From Octopus vulgaris (taxonomy: Eukaryota), in NCBI GenBank assembly GCA_951406725.2, contig OX597820.1:31434001-31498000 (forward strand): a stretch of DNA of 64,000 bases, in the 5' to 3' direction. Below, one piece after another: positions 8,022-59,730 of this stretch. The translations under genes were made by a program, and so were the position numbers. How positions within the stretch are numbered: position 1 is the first letter of the stretch; each line of letters begins with the position of its first letter. The notes beneath the pieces are model-generated. The model had not been told where the DNA came from. It saw nothing but the letters and a program-made list of their open reading frames with translations, and searched no databases.

Positions 8022-11000
8022 TCACAGGCGAAACCTGAGAACTGGTCCATTTATACAGGCCAGTCTCGCACAATTCACCCACCTTTCATAAAACTTGCTA
8101 TCGGACAGCACTTTCCTCTCTAAACTCATCTTCCTTTTCAAGTGAAACTTGAAAAAGTTGATGAGGCCTTGACCAAAGAGGAAAGTGTCTGTCTTTAGCC
8201 CTTTCAAACGAGTCCACCACACCACCTCTTTCGCCACAGCCACTAGGCACAAGAAAACGGCCTCGCCCTCCTTGTTAAAGGAGGTCGGTGGGGCAATCTT
8301 CACTATGGATTCGGCTGATAGTCGGATCCGTCCTACACATGACAGTAGCTGTTCGACATAAACCCATATTTCAGCAATACTCGGGCACTGGACGAGTGCG
8401 TGCAGGACGGTTTCGTCGTCCTGGCAACACCTCGGGCAGGCCCGGCTGACGGCACTTCCGTGCCGGTAGAGTTTATCTCGAACAGGCAGAGCCCCTCGGT
8501 AGCACTGCCAGGCGAGAGACCTCTGGAAATTATCCATTGGCCCCGGCCCGAAAGTCCTCCCGAACAGACCGCACAGTTCATCATCTTCAATGCCTAGAGT
8601 TTCCCCGAGAACGTCGTCGCATTTTTCCTCCACTAACCCTCTATAGAACGCTAGAGTGGAGCTGTAACCGATCGCATTGCCCGCCTGATGGAGGGCGGAG
8701 AGGGCTTGACGGCACTCGAGGTGCCAAGCGCCCTTTCTCGGTCTATGTTTGATCCAGGTCTGCAGCTCCGTCAAAGAGACGAGCTGCGGAAAATCGCGTC
8801 TGACAAAAGACGACCACACCTGTTCACCGTCTAGGAAGCGCTTGAGATGCCGCAGCCTGAGCGCATGTCTGCGCAACAGCAACCACGGCATTCCAAGGCC
8901 TCCGTTCAGCGGTCGTTGACAGCAGATGGAACGCCTGACCAGTGGCACCTGACCCTTCCACAAAAAGTCGAAGAGCAGGCGTACCAGCGTGGCCAACCAG
9001 CGGTTGGGACAAGGGACGACGGTCAAGCGGTAATAGATGACGGATGCGATGTATGCATTCGCCACCTCCGCTCGACCTTTCAGGGACAGCTTCCTCTCGG
9101 CCCATTTCTGGGTGAGACGTGCCACCCTGCTCGTCACCTCTTCCCAGTTCTTATCCACCTGGAGGTCCGGACCGAACCAGACCCCGAGCAGTTTAACGGG
9201 TCCGTCTGTCCAGCGCCCTACGACGCTGTTGGACGGCATGGGCTTGCCTCTCCAGGTGCCCAGTTGCAAGCCCACAGACTTTTCCGCGTTAATCTTTGCC
9301 CCTGTCACCGCTTCGTACTGGTTTAGCGTCTCGCCAATCAGGCCAATGTGCCTGTGGCTCGACACCACCACGGTGACGTCGTCGGCATAAGCAGACACGC
9401 TGTTTCCTCCTCCTAGATCGCGCGGGATACCCCTCAAAGCCTCCAACTTGCGCAGTAATGGCTCGAGAGTCAAAATATACAAGAGGGAGGAGAGAGGGCA
9501 TCCTTGGCGGACCGAACGCGAGATGTCGAACGGTTCCGAAAGGTGACCGTTCACCCGTATCACCGAGCAGATGTTGCTGTATAAAGCAGCGATCCACCCG
9601 CGGAAGACTGGACCGAAGCCGGCTGCCCTGAGGACAGTTGCCAGGTACCGATGGTCGACCCTATCGAAGGTTTTACTCTGATCCAAGTTGATCAAATCCC
9701 CACCCGCGCCAGCGTCGTTACCCACCCTCTCTACGATGTAGTGCATGAGATGGAGGTTGTCGTGTATCGACCTGGTCGGCACGGCGCATGTCTGTGTCTT
9801 GCCGACCAGCACGTCCACGACAAGCGCCAATCTCTTGGCTAGCACCTTGGCCAAAATCTTCAACTCTGCATTGAGCAGAGTGATGGGCCGGAAATTCCCT
9901 ATAACGTCCCCCTTGTTTGGGTCCTTCTTTAGCAAAGCCACCACCCCTCGACAGACAAAAGCAGGAATTCTCCCGTTTTGCTGCCAGTTGCAGTAGACGT
10001 TTGCCAACAGGTCCGCAAACAAGTCTGGCATTGAAAAGTAAAGCTCGTAGGGCAGACCATCCAAACCCGGCGATCTACCTCTCGTGCAACTCTTCATCGC
10101 TTCCTGTACTTCCCAGGCAGATATCGGTCCTTTGCAGCACTCTGCCTCGCTGTCCGAGAGTTGCGGCAGTCCGTCCAGGTACACACCGAAGTCTGTACCG
10201 TTGGTGTCCGTTCCACCGCTCGTCCCAAACAGTTGAGCAAAGTGCCGCTGAAGCACCGTACACATCTGCTTCGGTTGGGTAACCTCACGCCCGTTCTGGT
10301 CCACCAAAGACCGAATGGTTGCTCTGTTGCTTCGCTTCGCCTCCGCCACGCGGGCCCATCGAGCGGCTCTAGTCCCCTCCCCGCTTAGCGAACGTGCCTT
10401 AGCTCTGACAACGCAGCCTTCGTGTTTGGCGTCGAAGTGTTGGTCGAGGGCCAACTTTGCCGCCAACACGTCGGTCGCGATGCCAGTGTCAAGAGCCTCG
10501 TCTAGTTTCTTAACTAAATCCCGCTCTCTCTTCCTACGTTCAATAGCTAGAGTCTTACTATACCTAATCGACTCTACTCTAATTGCTCTCTTGAGGGCAA
10601 ACCACCAGTTGTTGTTGATGATTGCCCCCGTGAGCGCCCGCTTAACTAGTAAACTAATCCGGTCTCTGTAAGCTTTGCACGCCATTAACGACGCGTTCAG
10701 CTTCCAGTAGCCGGGTCCCTGTCTATGTAGCCTATCTAAGTCGACCGTACAGATCACTAATTTGTGGTCCGTATATTCGACTAGGTGGAATTGTGGACAC
10801 CCTACGCTGTCCTTATCCGCTGGCCTACAAAACACTCTATCTAAGTACGATCTAGACGACCCGATGCAGTTTGTCCAAGTCCACATTGGCACATTCGGGT
10901 TGTCTAGTCGAAACCTGTCAGACAGCTGAAAGCGGCCGAGTAGGTTGGCGAGGCTCTTGCACCCTCCCCCTCTCCTATCAGACGCTCCCCTGCCCACCCG

Positions 11001-11456
11001 ATCGAAACGTTCGTCTAAGACAGCGTTCCAATCCCCAACTAGCACTAGAGTGCGTGACGTTCCCAGGAAAACTTCCAGACGTTTGAAATAATCCGACTGC
11101 CCTGCTCCTGTCGGAGCGTAGGCAGCCAGCAGTCTGAAAGCACCGCCGTCACTACCGTCCACGTCGAGGACCACCAACTTACCTTCCGGATCCAAGAAGA
11201 CTGTCCTTATTTTCAGGTCCAGGCCCTTCCGAAACAACACCGCAGTACCACCACTGCCCGCTCCCGGCCGACACGGAGATAGAAATATCTCGTATCCGCC
11301 GAAAAGGGCTGCGAGTTCCTGCGGGTCGGAGAGCCTGGTTTCACTGATGGCTGCTACATCCACATCATGAAACCTCAGGTTGTTTAACAGGTGACCCTGT
11401 TTCCAAGGTGACCCGAGGCCTCTCACATTCAAGCAACCGATTCTAAGATTTGCCAT
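8022..11456 (-). CDS. LINE ORF2p: APE endonuclease + reverse transcriptase + C-terminal CCHC finger, 1144 aa, uninterrupted
   Basis: APE motifs LNVRGL, SETRL, GDWNA, YLDRVF, TDH. Tx1-like GPGYWKLN. RT motifs SPGLDG, NFRPITLLN, QGCPLS, YADD. C-terminal CPRCCQDDETVLHALVQC. Confidence 0.95.
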   Translation of the reverse strand: MANLRIGCLNVRGLGSPWKQGHLLNNLRFHDVDVAAISETRLSDPQELAALFGGYEIFLSPCRPGAGSGGTAVLFRKGLDLKIRTVFLDPEGKLVVLDVDGSDGGAFRLLAAYAPTGAGQSDYFKRLEVFLGTSRTLVLVGDWNAVLDERFDRVGRGASDRRGGGCKSLANLLGRFQLSDRFRLDNPNVPMWTWTNCIGSSRSYLDRVFCRPADKDSVGCPQFHLVEYTDHKLVICTVDLDRLHRQGPGYWKLNASLMACKAYRDRISLLVKRALTGAIINNNWWFALKRAIRVESIRYSKTLAIERRKRERDLVKKLDEALDTGIATDVLAAKLALDQHFDAKHEGCVVRAKARSLSGEGTRAARWARVAEAKRSNRATIRSLVDQNGREVTQPKQMCTVLQRHFAQLFGTSGGTDTNGTDFGVYLDGLPQLSDSEAECCKGPISAWEVQEAMKSCTRGRSPGLDGLPYELYFSMPDLFADLLANVYCNWQQNGRIPAFVCRGVVALLKKDPNKGDVIGNFRPITLLNAELKILAKVLAKRLALVVDVLVGKTQTCAVPTRSIHDNLHLMHYIVERVGNDAGAGGDLINLDQSKTFDRVDHRYLATVLRAAGFGPVFRGWIAALYSNICSVIRVNGHLSEPFDISRSVRQGCPLSSLLYILTLEPLLRKLEALRGIPRDLGGGNSVSAYADDVTVVVSSHRHIGLIGETLNQYEAVTGAKINAEKSVGLQLGTWRGKPMPSNSVVGRWTDGPVKLLGVWFGPDLQVDKNWEEVTSRVARLTQKWAERKLSLKGRAEVANAYIASVIYYRLTVVPCPNRWLATLVRLLFDFLWKGQVPLVRRSICCQRPLNGGLGMPWLLLRRHALRLRHLKRFLDGEQVWSSFVRRDFPQLVSLTELQTWIKHRPRKGAWHLECRQALSALHQAGNAIGYSSTLAFYRGLVEEKCDDVLGETLGIEDDELCGLFGRTFGPGPMDNFQRSLAWQCYRGALPVRDKLYRHGSAVSRACPRCCQDDETVLHALVQCPSIAEIWVYVEQLLSCVGRIRLSAESIVKIAPPTSFNKEGEAVFLCLVAVAKEVVWWTRLKGLKTDTFLFGQGLINFFKFHLKRKMSLERKVLSDSKFYERWVNCARLACINGPVLRFRL

Positions 11457-11483
11457 GTTTCAAAAGTTAGGGGAAAAAAGGCT

Positions 11484-13316
11484 CTACTTACTGTTGTTGG
11501 TGGTGGGGGTGGCTCCCTTGTGCTTTTGCACGGGTGCTTCAATAATATTTTTATAAAGTTTCTTAGAGAAACTTTTCCCTAACGATCCCACATCGTTAGG
11601 GAATATATGTTTAATTTCGTTGTATGCTGTATTGTTTATTTTTATTGTGAGAATGTGTGCTGGTGGTGTGTTGTGTGTAGGTATTATGAAATCTGTAATG
11701 TTTGTGCTTGTTTTGTTTTTCAAATACTCAACCAGTTCCTGGTTTCTTGTATTCACTGCTGTAATCGTGTCTGTAATTGTGTCTGTGTTTGTTTGTGTCT
11801 GTGGCAGTGGCAGTAGTGGTGTCGAAAGTGTTGTTGTTGTTGTTTGTTGTTGTGAATGTGTGTTGTTGTTGATGTTGGGAAGTACTATTTGTTCGTGCTT
11901 CCCCTGTAAATCTTTTTGTTTTTTCCTCCTTTTCTTTTTTGGAGGCACTATGTTCCATTCTCCTTTGTTGGAATCAGAGCTCGCACAATCCGAGATCTCT
12001 TCATCCGGCAAAGGAATGGTTGAGGGGTCTGCTTCAGTAGCAGGACGAAAGGTTTTTGGTTCCGCTGGTATCGGTGGTGCCGCTGCTCCTGTTGCTGTTG
12101 ATTTTGCTGCAGTTGATTTTCGAGGTACTGGTGTCGGTGTTGGTTTGGTGGCGGTTGTTGTTGTTGGAGGTGGTGTTGTTCGTCTTGGTGCTGGTGTTGG
12201 TGATGGTGTTGGTGGTGTGGCAGCCTTTGGTGTTTCGTGCTGTTTTTGTTGTTTCTGTTGTTGTTGTTGTTGTTGTTGTTGTTGCTGCCTCTTGCTATAC
12301 TCCTCCATTCTCTTTTTCTGAATGGGGCAGTCCCTTTTCAGGTGGCTTTCGCTACTGCAGAGGAAACATTTTGGCTTTCGCCCCTCTACAGTAACATTTA
12401 GCCTGGTCCCATCCAGTAAGATGACAAAGTCAGGTATGGCATTGATGTTTTCCTGCTGGATCTGTACCAGCAGTTGAATACCCATGCCTGACCAGTTCTT
12501 TTCTCGTACCCTCCGAACATTCAGAATAGTGGCAGTGTCCTCTATGCCATAGAGGACAGCCGCCACTAGCCATGAGATTTTCTGTTCGGTGGGTATTGTG
12601 TTAATGGTTATTTTTTGTACCTTACGCCCGAGGTACGTCGGGACGAGGAACAAATGTTCATTTTGCAAGGGCGAAATGGCGTTCGCCCTTGCAAGCTCCT
12701 CTGTTGGGAAGCGAACCTCCACGGTTCCAAAACGCTTCCCTCTTGTCACATAGCTCTTTTGGCCCCAAATGGGCTTCAGAGCTATTTCTAATTGTTGTGG
12801 TGTGGCGTTAACCAATCTTTTGGTTTACTTTTCGAAAACTTTATAAAAGATTGTTTTTTTATTTGTCTCGTGTATGAGTTGTTGATGTGTGTTAAGGAAA
12901 ACACTATTTCCTTCCTTTCTCAACAAATCTTTTGCCATTTTAATGTCTTCCATTGTTATTTGTACATCTTCCGAAATTTGCTTCGCAGCAGAAGCAAAAT
13001 CGTTAGAGACTTTTACATTTTTTTGTTGGTTCCTGTCTGTGTTTGTGTCTGTAAAAAGTTTCTTTTCCTCCCCCTTCGGTACAGCATCACTTGTTGAAGG
13101 CAGAGGGGGGAAATCAAGAGTGACGTCGAACGCGACGTCCCGACTAGCATTCTCCCTTCGAACGGTGCGCGTGCTTTCCGTTTCGGAAGGAGGAGCTCTG
13201 TTGCCTTTTACGGCCTGAAATGGGTTGTTCGTAACCCGTGACGTTATTTTTTTTTGTTCTTGTGGAGGGGGTGTTGTAAGAAGGAGGGAAGAGCCAGCAG
13301 CTCGTTTCAATGCCAT
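11484..13316 (-). pseudogene. LINE ORF1p (gag-like, CCHC knuckle) interrupted by a single in-frame TAA
   Basis: ATG at 13316 (MALKRAAG). Track ORFs 12825-13415 and 11484-12815 are in the same frame, separated only by TAA at 12827-12825 (..GAA AAG TAA ACC AAA AGA TTG..). Contains CFLCSSESHLKRDC knuckle, polyQ and Pro/Thr-rich linker, and a basic PPKKKRRKK patch. Confidence 0.85.
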
Positions 13317-15338: not shown

Positions 15339-15527
15339 AGAATTCACAAAAAAATAATAAAAGGCGAAGACAGGTGGTGTAGACAACAAACAGATGTATT
15401 AGTTTAACAGTCAGGAAATGAAAAAGTGTTTAACATTTCGAGCCTATGCTCTTCCACAGAAAGAAACAGGGAGAGAAAATAAAGAATGTGTAGTGGCTAG
15501 CGATCTATCATGGCGAATATATATATG

Positions 15528-16059
15528 CAACTTATAAATAAGGGCAAAAGAAAAAAAATTCCTATGCCAAATATGCTGAGAATAGACTTTAAATCGTCAA
15601 TAACCACATATAATTCATCACTATAAGCAAGCGTCTTGAAGCAAGCTGACAGAATTTTCTAAAAAATTCCATTATTACCAAATTGGTTTGATTTCTGAGT
15701 TAATTCATAAAGAATTTTCTCATCATCAGAGATAAATACATTAAGAGATAAATGAAATACTTACACCCATGAAATAAGCAGATGCAAAGCATACACATGA
15801 CCTTGTGTCTGCTTATTCCATGGGTGCAAGTATTTCATTTATCTCTTAATGTATTTACTGCTGATGACGAGAAAATTCTTTAAGAATTAACTCAAAAGTT
15901 GGACCGATTTGGTAATAACAGAATTTTTTAGAAATTTCTGTCAGCTTGCTTTGAGACGCGTGTTATAGTGATGAATTATATGCAGTTATTGACAATTTAA
16001 AGTCTGTTTTTGGCATATTTGCCATAGGAATTTTTTCTTTTGCCCTTATTTATAAGTTG
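15528..16059. repeat. Long imperfect inverted repeat (~260-bp arms), each arm with a decayed hammerhead
   Basis: caacttataaataagggcaaaag...cttttgcccttatttataagttg. The arms are homologous to the 35087-35335 element. Confidence 0.9.
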
Positions 16060-16143
16060 TTTATAATTTTCACCTTAATAGGTATTTTTAATATGCTGGC
16101 CGCTGATAAAATTTTTTTTGAAAATTTTATCCCAAATTAGATA

Positions 16144-17805
16144 TCTCTTATTATAAAAGGCAGATTTTATCTGCCTCCCTTTGTAACTTATAGAAATCTA
16201 CAATATAGGATTTCTTCAATTACAATTTACCTAGCATTTTTAAGAGTAGAATGCATCGGGTCATGCCAGGTCCAGTTTTTAAAATTTAAACTCCAATTAA
16301 GCAAAATTTACAGAAAACTCACATTCTGGTGTGTATGTCAAATGCTTTTCTTAATGTGGTTTACACCACACGCACACACACAGTGTGCAACGAATAAAAT
16401 GAAAGTAAATAGCGACAGAGTGATTTGAGGAAGACTAAACTGAAAGTATTTAAACCACTACTCAAAAAATAAAAAAACACAGCAAACAGAAACAAATAAA
16501 TACATAACGATTTACTCCTCACACAATTTCTTCAATTAGAGTTTACCTAAGATTTTTCAAAGTACTCCATTCGGTCATGCCATAATATATTTCTTTCAAT
16601 TTCACCCCCAATTAAGACAAAATTCGAGAAAACTCAATATTTTAACATTTCACTCCGAAAGCATTGATGTACATGTGTGCGTGCGTGAGTGTGTGTGTGT
16701 GTGTGTGTTTGATGGGTTGTGCGATACAGAAAGTGTGGTGTGTAAGTGAAGTGCTTTTGTTAGTGTGTGTAAAGAGACAGACAGAGTGAAAGGCAGAAAT
16801 AACTGAACTTTTTTTATTCACTTTTTGTAGTGAGTGACTGAGAGAGAAAAGAGAGAGAGAGGTTATGTATGTATATATGTATGTATGGCTTCAGTGACAC
16901 ACACACACAAAAACACATACCTACGTACACCTAAAGCACGCACACACACACACACACACACAAGCGGAGCGCGAACTTCAAAATTTTGGTAGTATTAATT
17001 TGCGAGCATACTTCTAAGCGCGCGTAATTGAAAGTTTTCACTATGATATCATCACGTGCGAAAAAATTCGAAGGGTTTTGAACAATTGAGATACACATGT
17101 CACGCCTGTATTGAAACCATTGCTAAGCTGCCGTAATTGCTTAATTAAGACTTTGTTTAAATTGAAAGGGGCAAATATGTGACGAGGTTGAAAAAAAATA
17201 CCCCAGAAAAAAAAATGTACTGCTGGTATTTATATAATTCACTACTATTTTGCTACAATGTCAGGAAAAAGAAAAAATTTAGGTATGTAAATCGAATTCG
17301 CCACCCCCTTTTCCCCGTGCGCGTTTGTGTAAAAAAAAATTTTTATTTAAGTTTTAAAAATTATTTACTTTGTTCAAAAAATATTAATATTAATTAATTT
17401 TCAAGAATTATTTAATTTTATTCTGTAAAATAGTAATTAATTCATTTATCTGTAAATCCGCGAGGTTGTTACTCAGGCACCTAGAATGGTAACCTTCAAC
17501 TAACACTATCTCCTCCGAGACTCTGCGGCGCAAGTTGACCAAAATTGAGAGTATGGTAGAAGAAGGGTTGCTCTTCCTTCCGTAGAACATAAAATTCAAA
17601 TCCGACCATGTTAACACCAAAAATTATTTACATCAAAATGATGCTTTTTTCTATGAAAATCCCTATTTTTTACGATTTTTTCACTGCTGTGTCGCCACTT
17701 TTCGGTGTATTTCGACCAGAAAAATGTTCACAAAATTTTTACTTTTCAAAATTACAATTCCAGTGGGTTGAAACAAACCCGAGCAACGCCGGGCGATACT
17801 GCTAG
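16144..17805 (+). mobile_element. Non-autonomous Helitron
   Basis: 5' A|TCtcttattataaaa. 3' GC-rich hairpin cccgagcaacgccggg followed by CTAG|T at 17802-17806. No TSD. Confidence 0.8.
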
Positions 17806-22225: not shown

Positions 22226-23612
22226 ATATTGTTTAGCCACAAGTCAGCCCAGATTACGATTTTGTATCAATGACCAACCCACTCACACTTTTTATTCATA
22301 GAGTACCTCAGACTACACTTCTTCCAGTTCCTCTCTCTCTTTCAGCTGAGACGTCCTTGTCTTGGAACCTACATGGCAACCCCGTGGGAACTGGTACCAC
22401 ATAAAAAGCATCCATGCTAGTACCATGTAAGAAGCATCTGTGCTGGCACCATGTAAAAAGCACCAGTACTGGTACCACATAAAAAGCATCCATGCCAGTA
22501 CCACATAGAGAGCCCTCATGCTGGTGCCATGTGAAAAGGTACTCATGCCAGCACCATGTGAAAAGCACCCAGTACACTCTGTAAAGTGGTTGGTGTTAGG
22601 AAGGGAAATCCACCCATAGAAACCATGCCAAAACAACAAGAGGAGCCCATACAGCTCTCCAGCTTGCTAGCTCCTGTCAAATTGTCCACCCCATGCCAGC
22701 ATGGAAAATGGACATTAAATGATAACGATGATGTAGGAATAACTAATCAAATGGATCCTTTCCTGCCAGTGTATGCAACAGAGACAATATTTAATTACAA
22801 TAATCATTTATGTGTCATGCTTAAATGCATACATGCTGTTGATAGCTCAGTTCCTTCAATATTTGTCCTGAGGTCCACAAGAGATGTTATCTCAGGACAA
22901 AAACTGTAGTGACTGGCCTACCAACTGTGTATATATACAGTAATTACAATACATCATCATCAAGATCCTTTAACTGATGCAGCCAGTCATTGGGGTGCTA
23001 CTCTAGATGCTTTCATATTCAGCTGTTGCCACTGGTCTCTGTTAATGTAGGCATGTGGCTTAGTGGTTAAGGTGTTTAACTCATGACTGTAAGATTGTGG
23101 TTTCAATTCCTGGACCGGGTGATGTGTTGTGTTCTTGAACAAAACACTTCATTTCACATTTCTACAGTCTACTCAGTAAGCAAAAATGAGCAATCCTGCA
23201 ATGGACTGGTGTCCTGACCAGACGGGGAATATATATGCCATGAAACCAGGAAACTGGCCCTTATGAAGCGGCACCCTAATGACTGGCTGCATCAGTTAAA
23301 TGATCTTGATGATGATGATGATGTATCGTAATTATTGTAATACACTGTTTGTAGGCCAGTCACTCTAGTTTTTGTCCTGAGATAACATCTCTTTGTATTA
23401 TACTTTTACCTTTCTTACTGATCTTAGTTTTGTGTCATTCATAGCAGATTCCCTGTGTTGTGATCTGTCCAGTCTTTGATGTTTGTCAAATCAGTACTTT
23501 CTTTGTCTGTCTCTCTTTCACTTGCCCTCAACTGTGCCCTAGAGAATAGTTTTAGGTAGGGAGTAGTGGTGGAATACATGACCCAACAAAGCAAGCTTTT
23601 GTCTTTTTACCT

Positions 23613-27756: not shown

Positions 27757-29030
27757 ATCATCATCATCATCATCATCGTTTAACGTCCGCTTTCCATGCT
27801 AGCATGGGTTGGACGGTTCAACTGGGGTCTGGGGAGCCCGAACGCTGCACCAGGCCAGTCAGATCTGGCAGTGTTTCTACAGCTGGATGCCCTTCCTAAC
27901 GCCAACCACTCCGAGAGTGTAGTGGGTGATTTTATGTGCCACCGACACAGGTGCCAGACAAGGCTGGCGAACGGCCCCGCTCGGATGGGGATTTTATGTG
28001 CCACCGACACAGGTGCCAGACGAGGCTGGCAGACGGCCACGCTCGGATGGTGTTTTTATGTGCCACCGACACAGGTGCCAGACGAGGCTGGCAGACGGCC
28101 ATGCTCGGATGGTGTTTTTATGTGCCACCGACACAGGTGCCAGACGAGGCTGGCAGACGGCCACACTCGAATGGTGTTTTTATGTGCCACCAACACAAGT
28201 GCCAGACGAGGCTGGCAGACGGCCACGCTCGGATGGTGTTTTTATGTGCCACCGACACAGGTGCCAGACGAGGCTGGCAGACGGCCACGCTCGGACGGTG
28301 TTTGTTACGTGCCCACAGCACGGAGGCCAGTCGATGCGGTACTGGCTACGGTCATGTTCGGATGGTTTTCTTATGTGCCACCGGCACTGGTACCACAAGG
28401 ATACAAATTCCATTGATGTTCATCTATTTTGATTTGGTTTGACTTGATTCGATTTGACTTTGATTTGATTTGCCTCAACAGGTCTTCTCAAGTGTCACAA
28501 GCAGGAAAGTATGCACAGGCGGACTGACTACGTCCCAGGTAGGGGCCACGGGTTATGGCTTCACTAGTCTTGCCGGGTCTTCTCACGCACAGCATACTTC
28601 CATAGGTCTCGGTCTCTGGTCATTTCCATGGTGAGACCTAATGTTCGAAGGTCGTGCTTCACCACCTCGTCCCAGGTTTTCCTGGGTCTACCTCTTCCAC
28701 GGGTTCCTTCAACTGCTAGGGATTGGCACTTTCTCACACACCTATCTTCATCCATTCTCGCCACATGACCATACCATCGCAATCGTCTCTCTTGCACGCA
28801 ACAACTGATGCTTCTTAGGTACAACATTTCTCTTAGGGAACTAACACTCTGTCGAGTAAGTACACTGACATTACACATCCATCGGAGCATACTGGCTTCA
28901 TTCCTCATGAGCTTACGCATGTCCTCAGCAGTCACGGCCCATGTTTCACTGCCATGTAGCATGGCAGTTCGAACACATGCATCATACAGTCTGCCCTTTA
29001 CTCTGATGCATCATACAGTCTGCCCTTTAC

Positions 29031-34819: not shown

Positions 34820-35038
34820 TACATACATGCACACACACATAATGGGTTTCTTTCAGTTTCTATCTGTTAAATCCAGTCACAAGGCTTTGGTTGGCCCAAA
34901 GCTATTGTAGAAGAAACTTGCCCGAGGTGCCACAGAGTGAGACCAAACCCAGAGCCATGTGGTTAGGAAGCAAACTTCTTACCACACAGCCACCCTTGCA
35001 TCTATATATGCATACATACACACACAAACATATATATG

Positions 35039-35089
<51 letters not shown>

Positions 35090-35132
35090 AATGGGTATGA
35101 GTAAGTATCTCATTTATTTCTTTTGCCACATG

Positions 35133-35190
35133 TATCACTGACGAAGAGAGGGCTCTTAGTAGCTAACTCTGAAATCGGTCCGATATGGTA
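35133..35190 (+). ncRNA. Type I hammerhead ribozyme, apparently intact
   Basis: Stem I TATCA, core CTGACGA, stem II AGAG..CTCT, GAAA, stem III (A)TCGG-T-CCGA(T), cleavage triplet AUA (A35185), stem I' TGGTA. Confidence 0.8.
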
Positions 35191-35330
35191 ATAATGGAAT
35201 TTTTAGAAATTTCTGTCGACCTTTTTCGAGTAGCGTGCGTATTGTGAAAAAATTATATGGTTAATGGACAATATGTCCAATTTTTCGGCATATTTGGCAT
35301 TAGAATTTTTTTCCTTTGCCCTCATTTATG

Positions 35331-35378
<48 letters not shown>

Positions 35379-56335: not shown

Positions 56336-59300
56336 ATCATCATCATCATCATCATCATTTAGCGTCCGTTTTCCATGCTAGCATGGGTTGGACGGTTCTG
56401 CTGGGGTCTGTGAAGCCAGAAGGCTTCATCAGGCCCAGTCAAATCTGGCAGTGTTTCTACGGCTGGATGCCCTTCCTAACGCCAACCACTCCGTGAGTGT
56501 AGTGGGTGCTTTTTACGTGCCACCCGCACTGGTGCCAGCCAGAGCTGGCAAACGGCCACGAACGGATGGTGTTTTTTATGTGCCACCGGCACGAGGGCCA
56601 GGCGAGGCTGGCAACGAACACGAAACGGGGCGGTGCTGGCAACGGTCGCGAAACGGAAGGTTCTCTTACATGCCACCGGCACTGGTAACACATCTGCAAT
56701 TTCCATTGATCGATTTCCATTGATCGATTTCGATTCTGATCCTCACTTGCCTCAATGGGTCTTCACAAGCAGAGTTTCGACATGCCACCGGCACTGGTAG
56801 CACATCCGCAATTTCCATTGATCGATTTCGATTCTGATCCTCACTTGCCTCAACACGTCTTCACAAGTAGAGTTTTGTGTCCCAAGAAGGGAAGGTATGC
56901 ATACGTAGGCTGGCTCCATCCCATGTAGAAGGCCACGGGTTGTGGACTCACTTGTCCTGCCGGGTCTTCTCGCGCACAGCACACTTCCAGAGGTCTCGGT
57001 CTCTAGTCATTTCCTCGGTGAGACCTAAAGTTCGAAGGTCGTGCTTCACCACCTCGTCCCAGGTTTTCCTGGGTCTGCCTCTTCCACAGGTTCCCTCAAC
57101 CGCTAGGGTGTGGCACTTTTTCACACAACTATCTTCATCCATTCTCGCCACATGACCATACCAGCGCAAACGTCTCTCTTGCACACCACAACTGACGCTT
57201 CTTAGGTCCAGCTTTTCTCTCAAGGTACTTACACTCTGCCGAGTGTGAGTACTGGCATTACACATCCATCGGAGCATACTGGCTTCATTTCTAGCGAGCT
57301 TACGCATATCCTCAGCAGTCACGGCCCATGTTTCACTGCCATGTAGCATGGCTGTTCGTACACACGCATCATACAGTCTGCCTTTCACTCTGTGCGAGAG
57401 GCCTTTTGTCACCAGCAGAGGTAAGAGCTCTCTGAACTTTGCCCAAGCTATTCTTACTCTAGCAGTTACACTTTCAGCACACCCGCCCCCGCTGCTGACT
57501 TGGTCACCTAGGTAACGGAAACTATCAACTATTTCTAGTTTTTCTCCCTGGAAAGTGACAGAAGTTGGTCTCAGAGCATTTTCAGTGTTTATTGTTCCTG
57601 AGCATCTGCCACATACAAAAACCATCTTCCTAGTTAGCCTTCCTTTGACATTGCTGCATCTCTTATGTGTCCATAGCTTACACTTGGTGCATCTTATAGA
57701 GTTTCTACCTACACCTTTTCTACAGATCGAGCAGGGCCATCTACCTGAAGGTGTTTGTGATTTGTCTACCTTCCTACTGATTACGACTTTGGTTTTAGCT
57801 AGATTGACTCTGAGGCCCTTCGATTCTAATCCTTGTTTCCACACCTGAAACTTCTCCTCCAGTTCTGATAGCGACTCAGCAATTAGAGCAAGGTCATCAG
57901 CATAGAGGAGCTCCCAAGGGCATCCTGTCTTGAATTCCTCCGTTATTGCCTGGAGGACTATGATAAATAGGAGGGGGCTGAGTACTGAGCCTTGGTGGAC
58001 CCCTACCTCTACCCGGAATTCTTCACTGTACTCATTTCCAACCCTCACCCTACTAGCGGCGTCCCTATACATGGCCCGCACAGCTCTCACTAACCATTCA
58101 TCTATCCCTAGTTTTCTCATTGCCCACCAGATAAGGGATCGGGGGACCCTGTCGAAGGCTTTCTCCATGTCAACAAAAGCCAGGTACAGGGGCTTATCTT
58201 TGGCTAGGTATTTCTCCTGCAGCTGCCTTACCAGGAATATAGCATCAGTAGTACTTTTCCCTGGCACAAACCCAAACTGCATCTCATCTAAACTAACTCT
58301 CTCTCTAATTAGTTGGGCTATGACCCTCTCCGTAACCTTCATCACCTGGTCCAACAGCTTGATACCTCTGTAGTTGTTTGTATCTAGGGCATCACCTTTA
58401 CCTTTGTAGCAGTTGACTATTATACTGCTACACCAGTCATTGGGTATGACCCCTTTGTGTATCACCTGATTAACTATATGGGTGACTAGGCTATAGCCGA
58501 CACTACCAGACATTTTGAGCATCTCTGCAGTGATTCCTGATGGGCCTGGGGCTTTCCCTGTCTTCATGCTTCTAATTGCCTTAGCTACCACAGAACTATC
58601 AACTCGGATAGCTGGTCCCTCTGTTGGGTCAACATTCGGCCGACTCTCTTTATCCCATTCATTTTCTTCATTCAGCAACCTTTCATAGTGGCATCTCCAA
58701 ACCTCTCTCTTTGCATCCTCATTTAGCGCAAGTGAACCATCTTCCATGCGAACACACTTCTCTCCTACCACATCACGATTCTCTCTCACGCACTGTCTTG
58801 CAACACGAAACACCTCCAGTCTTTGGTCCTCACGGCGCAGAACATTGGCAAATTTTTTCTTATCTGCTTCCCCTCTGGCTAAATAAACCTGTCTCCTAGC
58901 TTCTCTTTTGGCAATCTGATACAATTCCCTGCTACCCCCATTTTTCCAGACCTTCCAAGCCTGTCTCTTTTCTCTAATAGCCCTGTCTACAATATTGTTC
59001 CACCACCACGTTATTCTAGGTCGAGAGGGGACTTTGCACCAGCCACAGATCTGGTCAGTGGCTCTCAGCAGGTTGTCCCTTAGAAACGTCCAGCTGTCTT
59101 CTACCCCCTGTGATGCTCTATCCCCTTCTACTTCGTCAGAGGCTTCAAGTAATATGTCCCTAAATCTCTGTCCATTTGCAGGATCTTTAAGCTTCCAGAT
59201 CCTTCTTCTCCATATTTGTCGTCTTCTGGTTGTCCTCCTAGTCCTGATCCTAAAGTCACTAACTACCAGTCTATGTTGTGGGGTACATTCTTCACCTGGG

Positions 59301-59367
59301 AAGGTTTTGGCATTTATAAGCAGCCATCTCTCCCTTTGCCTTGTAAGGATGTAGTCAATTTGGCTGG
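56336..59367 (-). mobile_element. 5'-truncated RTE-clade LINE with 3'UTR and (GAT)n tail
   Basis: ORF ends at 56948. The 3'UTR 56336-56947 ends in (cat)n on the plus strand and contains an internal ~100-bp tandem duplication (about 56669-56770 and 56781-56875). (TA)n tracts on both flanks. Confidence 0.92.
56948..59367 (-). CDS. RTE ORF (end of APE, RT, PHD finger, thumb), open over 2.4 kb but 5'-truncated
   Basis: SQIDYIL and QHRLVV (APE end), [68 protein letters not shown]. The N-terminal ~118 aa of the track ORF are translated microsatellite. Confidence 0.9.

Positions 59368-59730
<363 letters not shown>

What the first reader, a model, noticed from the sequence alone, without database searches (positions are those of the whole stretch)
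35087..35335. 250-bp (TA)n-flanked element carrying an apparently intact hammerhead
All canonical core nucleotides are present (CUGACGA, GAAA, UA), with a 5-bp stem I, a 4-bp stem II and a near-palindromic stem III AUCGG-U-CCGAU. Its 1-nt loop implies dimeric folding. Diverged homologues at 15676-15734 and 15856-15914 keep the same architecture with different stem II ends (TGAG/CTCA versus AGAG/CTCT), a hint of covariation. This is the best experimental candidate.
Basis: partly seen in the sequence, partly recalled or inferred. Interest (0 to 1): 0.75.

Follow-up and report, generated by a model that had tools for sequence, protein, structure and literature searches.

The report
Hammerhead passenger of Penelope retrotransposons
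This 250-base stretch is a truncated copy of an abundant 500-base non-coding repeat with a hammerhead motif predicted to cut its own RNA; it was likely pasted into a TA microsatellite by a Penelope-type retrotransposon enzyme, so it is likely a new family of a known kind of genomic parasite.

Summary
The hammerhead is real: full type I core at 35138-35185, three helices, 0 such hits in 300 simulated windows. The 250 bp are not the whole element but positions 154-402 of a closed ~500-bp non-coding unit with about 1,000 intact-motif copies in this 2.8-Gb animal genome. Copies sit in (TA)n tracts, are 5'-truncated, often two-armed, and end at two fixed 3' points ~100 nt apart, one per arm (27 of 28): the Penelope 'tail' signature. 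An active Neptune-type Penelope element with the same target and end pattern exists here but shares no significant sequence, so the helper is unidentified. Against 'best experimental candidate': this copy is solo, a fold that hides the catalytic core is predicted to dominate, and 42 of 44 copies run through the cut site. Verdict: new member of the animal retrozyme / non-autonomous Penelope class; cutting and circles untested. The scan noted several other families of this kind on other DNA.

The parts
35030..35087 (.). (TA)n target tract, left
35087..35093 (-). 7-nt piece identical to the reverse complement of the unit's long 3' end; likely a minimal inverted arm, joined to the main arm through a shared ATG (35091-35093)
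   Evidence: junction print; only 3 of the 7 letters are not explained by the TA run or the main arm, so weak on its own
35091..35334 (+). Main arm: unit positions 154-402, 5'-truncated, ending at the family's short 3' end
   Evidence: 97.6% to natural full copy L014:1348-1852; 98-99% to the best other copies
35133..35190 (+). Type I hammerhead motif; predicted cut after A35185 (unit 248); 68-nt sequence identical to the commonest young variant (32 of 114 copies)
35137..35179 (+). Predicted alternative (off) helix pairing 35137-35141, which includes core CUGA, with 35175-35179
   Evidence: prediction only
35334..35376 (.). (TA)n target tract, right
15519..15789 (-). Old-subfamily copy, left arm of an inverted pair, ends at the short 3' end; helix III broken
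15796..16145 (+). Old-subfamily copy, right arm, runs on to a long-type 3' end; catalytic core damaged

Best explanation
The stretch is a solo, 5'-truncated copy of a ~500-bp non-coding hammerhead repeat that is likely copied into (TA)n tracts by the reverse transcriptase/GIY-YIG endonuclease of a Penelope-like element. Steps: (1) shown: the family is a closed head-to-tail unit without an ORF, about 1,000 copies, young; (2) inferred: a more-than-unit RNA (uncut multimer or ligated circle) is bound by a Penelope protein, which nicks both strands of a TA tract and starts copying at two fixed internal sites ~100 nt apart (unit ~403 and ~502), one for each strand, giving two-armed insertions with one short and one long end; (3) inferred: this copy is such an event with a 244-nt arm and a ~7-nt inverted arm; (4) inferred: the hammerhead is kept by selection during family turnover and cuts after unit 248, but poorly as a naked monomer, needing a second copy or protein; (5) inferred: with one ribozyme and no unit 5' part, this copy cannot release a unit-length RNA and is probably a dead end.
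For: Copy number: 1,081 exact matches to the 14-nt GAAA+helix III pattern vs 38 for the reversed control. Closed unit: of 30 loci found with the unit's 5' end, 27 are preceded by the unit's own 3' end, 3 by TA-rich DNA, none by other sequence; hammerhead spacing 472-509 in 16 same-strand pairs; longest Met-ORF 58 aa in a natural 3-unit tandem. Penelope signature: among 59 insertions, 28 have two defined outer 3' ends; 27 are long+short and inverted, 1 long+long, 0 short+short; matches the tail and two RT start sites of PMC11167929 and the tail/inverted/microsatellite pattern of PMC8557442. Arms of one insertion share rare variants (tandem 44 of 222, inverted 41 of 221) far more than unrelated copies (646 of 56,988). 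A helper type exists: a tandem element with a 784-aa RT + GIY-YIG frame, coding segments median 99.8% identical (33 segments), all 33 scored 3' ends in TA runs at two points 34 nt apart. Hammerhead: 93.6% of 1,134 cells paired, double changes A-U/G-C, A-U/G-C, G-C/A-U, C-G/U-A between subfamilies; slid controls 21-42% paired.
Against: No significant sequence link between the unit and the active Penelope element (best E 0.038 in A/T-rich sequence), and a second Penelope family ends differently, so the helper is not identified. The tail (95-110 nt) is about three times the published 30-40 bp. The covariation is about four subfamily events, not 78 independent ones; 'pairs with a change on both sides' was reached by 68 of 500 shuffles. 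The base of helix II is A-U or C-A, not the usual G10.1-C11.1. The active monomer fold is 5e-6 of the predicted ensemble for this copy and never the minimum in 4 of 4 copies; the swapped dimer (-28.5) is below two misfolded monomers (-26.0) but above the dimer minimum (-32.4 kcal/mol). No genomic footprint of cutting: 42 of 44 segments cross the site, 0 of 95 internal 5' ends fall at 247-251. Genome searches return only the best 40 candidates, so samples lean to young, long copies.
Confidence: 0.82

Rival explanations
1. The unit is the pseudo-LTR of an autonomous Penelope element whose coding copies were not sampled; the window copy is an ordinary 5'-truncated 3' stump.
For: Most Penelope hammerheads occur as solo truncated motifs (PMC4209133); two loci have a Penelope RT fragment just downstream (L014, L042).
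Against: 0 of 30 loci with unit position 1 continue into other sequence; old copies are also head-to-tail (L038, L049, L053); both RT fragments belong to elements with other 3' ends; the one 2.9-kb direct pair has no RT between the copies.
Confidence: 0.08
2. The family moves as described, but the hammerhead is a decaying or non-cutting relic inherited from a parent pseudo-LTR, acting at most as a structural element.
For: Off fold is the predicted minimum in 4 of 4 copies; copies run through the site; non-standard helix II base; cleavage was dispensable for insertion in vitro in PMC11167929.
Against: Core and helix III are the same in the majority forms of subfamilies only ~73% identical overall, with compensatory changes in both other helices; 56 of 73 young, 8 of 10 middle and 11 of 31 old copies pass the intactness filter.
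Confidence: 0.2
3. A SINE-like, RNA polymerase III element carried by a LINE.
For: A B-box-like 9-mer (consensus recalled) at unit 57 in most young copies.
Against: The motif is lost in most old copies; runs of 4 T at unit 98 and 184 lie before the hammerhead; no poly(A) or single fixed 3' tail, but two ends and inverted arms.
Confidence: 0.03

Closest known systems
Metazoan non-LTR retrozymes (Cervera and de la Pena 2020, PMC7229834, passages read; Li, Clavereau and Pollet 2026, bioRxiv 10.64898/2026.07.22.740005, parts 1-3 of 5 read)
   Same: Non-coding, low-GC (34%) head-to-tail unit with one type I hammerhead per unit; many solo monomers; co-occurs with Penelope elements, proposed there as the helpers.
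   Different: Unit ~500 bp (above the 150-450 bp of the 2020 paper, inside the 51-972 bp of the preprint); mostly dispersed 1-2 unit, two-armed insertions rather than long arrays; 5-bp palindromic helix III; no homologous pseudo-LTR found; RNA circles and cutting untested.
Hammerheads in pseudo-LTRs of EN+ Penelope-like elements (Cervera and de la Pena 2014, PMC4209133, parts 1-2 of 4 read; Frangieh 2024, PMC11167929, parts 1-2 of 4 read; Craig 2021, PMC8557442, passages)
   Same: Type I, short helix I, long helix II, palindromic helix III; inverted 5'-truncated arms; tail at one end; AT/microsatellite targets.
   Different: No RT/EN frame in the unit; helix III longer; helix II base A-U or C-A with the G-C pair one step out; tail ~100 nt; both 3' ends lie at TA-like words of the unit, whereas the Anolis element started at a site not homologous to the cut DNA.

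Membership tests
Type I hammerhead ribozyme | Core C3-A9, G12-A14, A15.1-U16.1, H17 | tested here: met
Type I hammerhead ribozyme | Three helices, helix I open, supported by covariation | tested here: met
   93.6% paired, four subfamily-level double changes; helix III nearly invariant so uninformative
Type I hammerhead ribozyme | Usual G10.1-C11.1 pair (typical, not universal) | tested here: not met
   A-U in 75 of 76 scored young/middle copies, C-A in 22 and U-A in 5 of 27 old; G-C is the next pair
Type I hammerhead ribozyme | Match to an Rfam hammerhead model | tested here: not met
   (none at E<=10); one search lists 6 RF00163 matches of 73 scored, none at this place
Type I hammerhead ribozyme | Site-specific self-cleavage | not testable with these tools
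   predicted off fold dominates in the monomer
Non-LTR retrozyme | Head-to-tail units, one type I hammerhead each | tested here: met
   family level: 16 same-strand pairs 472-509 apart, 27 of 30 junctions; this copy alone is a partial monomer
Non-LTR retrozyme | No protein coding, low GC, no LTR | tested here: met
Non-LTR retrozyme | Expressed as unit-length linear and circular RNA | not testable with these tools
   no run on record as RNA was listed; contigs cannot show ends or circles
Autonomous Penelope-like element | RT + GIY-YIG open reading frame | tested here: not met
Penelope-type insertion | 5' truncation, inverted arms, tail at one end only, AT-rich target | tested here: met
Penelope-type insertion | Homology to the pseudo-LTR of a helper element | tested here: inconclusive
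   not found for two families examined; other families not examined

The most novel reading that the evidence does not exclude
The hammerhead is a two-state switch: every subfamily keeps a 5-bp helix that locks the catalytic CUGA strand to the palindromic helix III strand (young: A2.1 with the loop U; old: U7 with A15.1), so the RNA stays uncut or circular until a second copy or the Penelope protein opens it. A non-coding passenger with no homology to its helper would then carry its own pair of reverse-transcription start sites ~100 nt apart at TA-like words, making it a compact natural cargo signal for Penelope-mediated insertion into (TA)n.
Probability: 0.2. Interest if true: 0.6.

Novelty: new member of a known kind. 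Interest (0 to 1): 0.27.

Why it matters
It adds a young, ~1,000-copy family to the evidence that animal retrozymes ride Penelope enzymes: the preprint argues this from co-occurrence and homology, while these copies show the insertion fingerprint (two 3' ends, one per arm) directly, next to a Penelope element that looks active in the same genome. That offers a cargo/helper pair for an in vitro insertion assay. The single locus itself is ordinary. I found no description of this family in searches for Penelope+hammerhead+octopus, hammerhead ribozyme+cephalopod, retrozyme+octopus and octopus+Penelope+transposable elements (listings only, plus a term search of PMC13282606 with 0 hits for hammerhead or ribozyme); repeat libraries and supplements were not seen and may hold it unnamed.

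Tried and rejected
Rfam scan of the whole window gave only microsatellite and inverted-repeat noise in the 150 rows shown of 187. The 2.9-kb direct pair on C1 looked like a full Penelope element but holds no RT; it is a local duplication. The RT next to L014 and the one next to L042 belong to separate elements in the same TA tracts. Expression: no RNA holder listed; four runs guessed to be RNA hold contigs over the unit, none bridges the head-to-tail junction with 31 letters on both sides, and the 53-nt skip has no GT-AG ends: no evidence either way. A donor-like GTAAGT at 35101 has no acceptor before helix I (sequence), so no Penelope-style intron is claimed. Clustering of 5' ends at the cut site: not seen. 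A constrained dimer fold with longer flanks gave no output, so dimer energies are for the 58-nt core only; in a natural tandem the inter-copy helix III had pairing probability 0. Rows dropped: 15 of 78 distinct hammerhead sequences (truncated, gapped, misaligned or near-redundant) were left out of the alignment; two rows (assembly gap, locus edge) were left out of the 33 helper ends. The host was not identified; 'octopus-like' is recall plus earlier AI notes.

Full report
Observation. The sequence at 35133-35190 reads as a complete type I hammerhead: helix I (5 bp), CUGACGA, helix II (4 bp, a 2x2 loop, 4 more bp), GAA, a 5-bp palindromic helix III around one U, and A35185 as the cleavage nucleotide. 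It lies between TA tracts at 35030-35087 and 35334-35376. A strict descriptor gives this one hit in the window and none in 300 simulated windows. Rfam does not recognise it.

What the element is. The window lies in a 2.80-Gb genome of 227 contigs; the 244-bp query had 2,515 first-look candidates, and the best 40 scored were mostly 98-99% identical. The 14-nt GAAA+helix III pattern occurs 1,081 times against 38 for the reversed control. The copies extend on both sides to a unit of about 500 bp; the window copy is positions 154-402 of the natural full copy L014:1348-1852. The unit is closed: 27 of 30 loci found with its 5' end are preceded by its own 3' end, 3 by TA-rich DNA, none by a coding body. 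Same-strand hammerheads are 472-509 apart in 16 pairs and the longest Met-ORF in a natural three-unit tandem is 58 aa.

How it inserts. 3' ends are fixed at two points, unit ~403 and ~502, both at TA-like words and followed by TA runs (38 short and 42 long junctions; tail 95-110 nt); 5' ends are scattered. Of 59 insertions, 28 have two defined outer 3' ends: 27 are inverted with one long and one short end, one is long+long, none short+short. In the 95 matches listed for contig C1, 12 inverted pairs within 700 bp all have their 5' ends facing (my count). The window copy fits in miniature: its right end is the short end, and its left 7 nt equal the reverse complement of the long end, weak evidence alone. 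The old pair at 15519-16145 also has a short and a long end. Arms of one insertion share rare variants at about 19-20% against 1.1% between insertions (pairs are not independent, one locus gives 10 of 58), so they come from one template. This is the published Penelope pattern: inverted 5'-truncated copies, a tail at one end and microsatellite bias (PMC8557442), the tail being the stretch between two internal reverse-transcription starts of an enzyme that cuts both strands of AT-rich DNA (PMC11167929).

Candidate helper. An RT fragment beside one copy led to a tandem element of ~4.43 kb with a 446-aa frame and a 784-aa frame holding RVT_1 (above cut-off) and GIY-YIG (E 4e-4, just below cut-off), with a CX4CX2C linker as described for Neptune/Nematis (no tree was built). 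Its coding segments are median 99.8% identical, and all 33 scored 3' ends fall in TA runs at two points 34 nt apart; where both ends of an insertion were seen, 5 were long+short and 1 long+long. It has its own minimal hammerhead with the U3-A8 core variant known from Schistosoma (PMC4209133). It shares no significant sequence with the unit, nor does a second family. The enzyme class is therefore well supported and the particular helper is not.

Is the hammerhead under selection? Young, middle and old subfamilies (old ~73% identical to young) keep the core and helix III and differ by double changes at 2.1/1.1 (A-U/G-C), in lower helix II (A-U/G-C) and twice in upper helix II (G-C/A-U, C-G/U-A), plus G-U/A-U and U-G/C-G (63 of 78 distinct sequences aligned). 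These are about four events, not independent counts, and relatedness inflates the shuffle test; the slid controls (21-42% paired against 93.6%) agree with the structure. Both window homologues are damaged.

Does it cut? Untested. A 4-bp helix III with a 3-nt loop is possible, so a dimer is not forced. Folding predicts instead a helix between the core CUGA and the 5' strand of helix III as the minimum in 4 of 4 copies from all three subfamilies; the active fold is 5e-6 of the ensemble for the window copy (tertiary contacts and magnesium are not modelled). For the 58-nt core the swapped dimer is -28.5 against -26.0 for two misfolded monomers and -32.4 for the best dimer. In the genome, 42 of 44 segments found with a query wholly downstream of the cut run through the site and none of 95 internal 5' ends lies at 247-251: the copied RNA is an uncut multimer or a religated circle, and these data cannot tell which. 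This fits the Anolis element, whose hammerhead needed protein and was dispensable for insertion, and the low activity of Penelope minimal hammerheads.

Verdict. A real, conserved hammerhead in a solo stump of a young non-coding unit that bears the Penelope insertion fingerprint: a new family of the animal retrozyme / non-autonomous Penelope class. The class is published. Earlier notes of this scan describe units of 361-659 bp with the same reading; look-ups by this sequence and place returned nothing. I had reached this reading before seeing them, and count them as no support. Interest is modest; the off-fold switch and the ~100-nt tail are the only points a specialist might find new.

Noticed in passing
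L096 (G000:C9:10669500-10679400), minus strand: Very young Penelope-like element in ~4.43-kb tandem units with two overlapping frames (446 aa without Pfam match; 784 aa RT + GIY-YIG) instead of one, a U3-A8 minimal hammerhead, and strict (TA)n targeting; 150 of 150 scored endonuclease matches are 99-100% identical.
   Followed up: partly
   Followed up: no
L136:2700-3560: Internally deleted derivative of a second Penelope family (58% RT identity to the first; 1,483 candidates), ending in a TA run.
   Followed up: partly
window 8022-12824 (minus): Two long open frames (446 aa and 1,145 aa with endonuclease and RT motifs, read by eye): an apparently intact L1/Tx1-like LINE (name recalled).
   Followed up: no
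window 56948-59400 (minus): Long RT-bearing frame of an RTE-like LINE (name recalled) next to a TA-rich tract; a 3' fragment of the same family at 28564-29010.
   Followed up: no
window 27925-28313 and 56505-56624: 62-63 bp tandem minisatellite (6.3 and 1.9 copies); 26-bp related array at 22394-22571.
   Followed up: no
L014:1404-1420 (unit 57-73): B-box-like 9-mer next to a CACGTG word; CACGTG is kept in most old copies, the B-box-like word is not. A similar 16-mer lies in the helper's end repeat in opposite orientation (E 5.4, not significant).
   Followed up: partly
   Followed up: no
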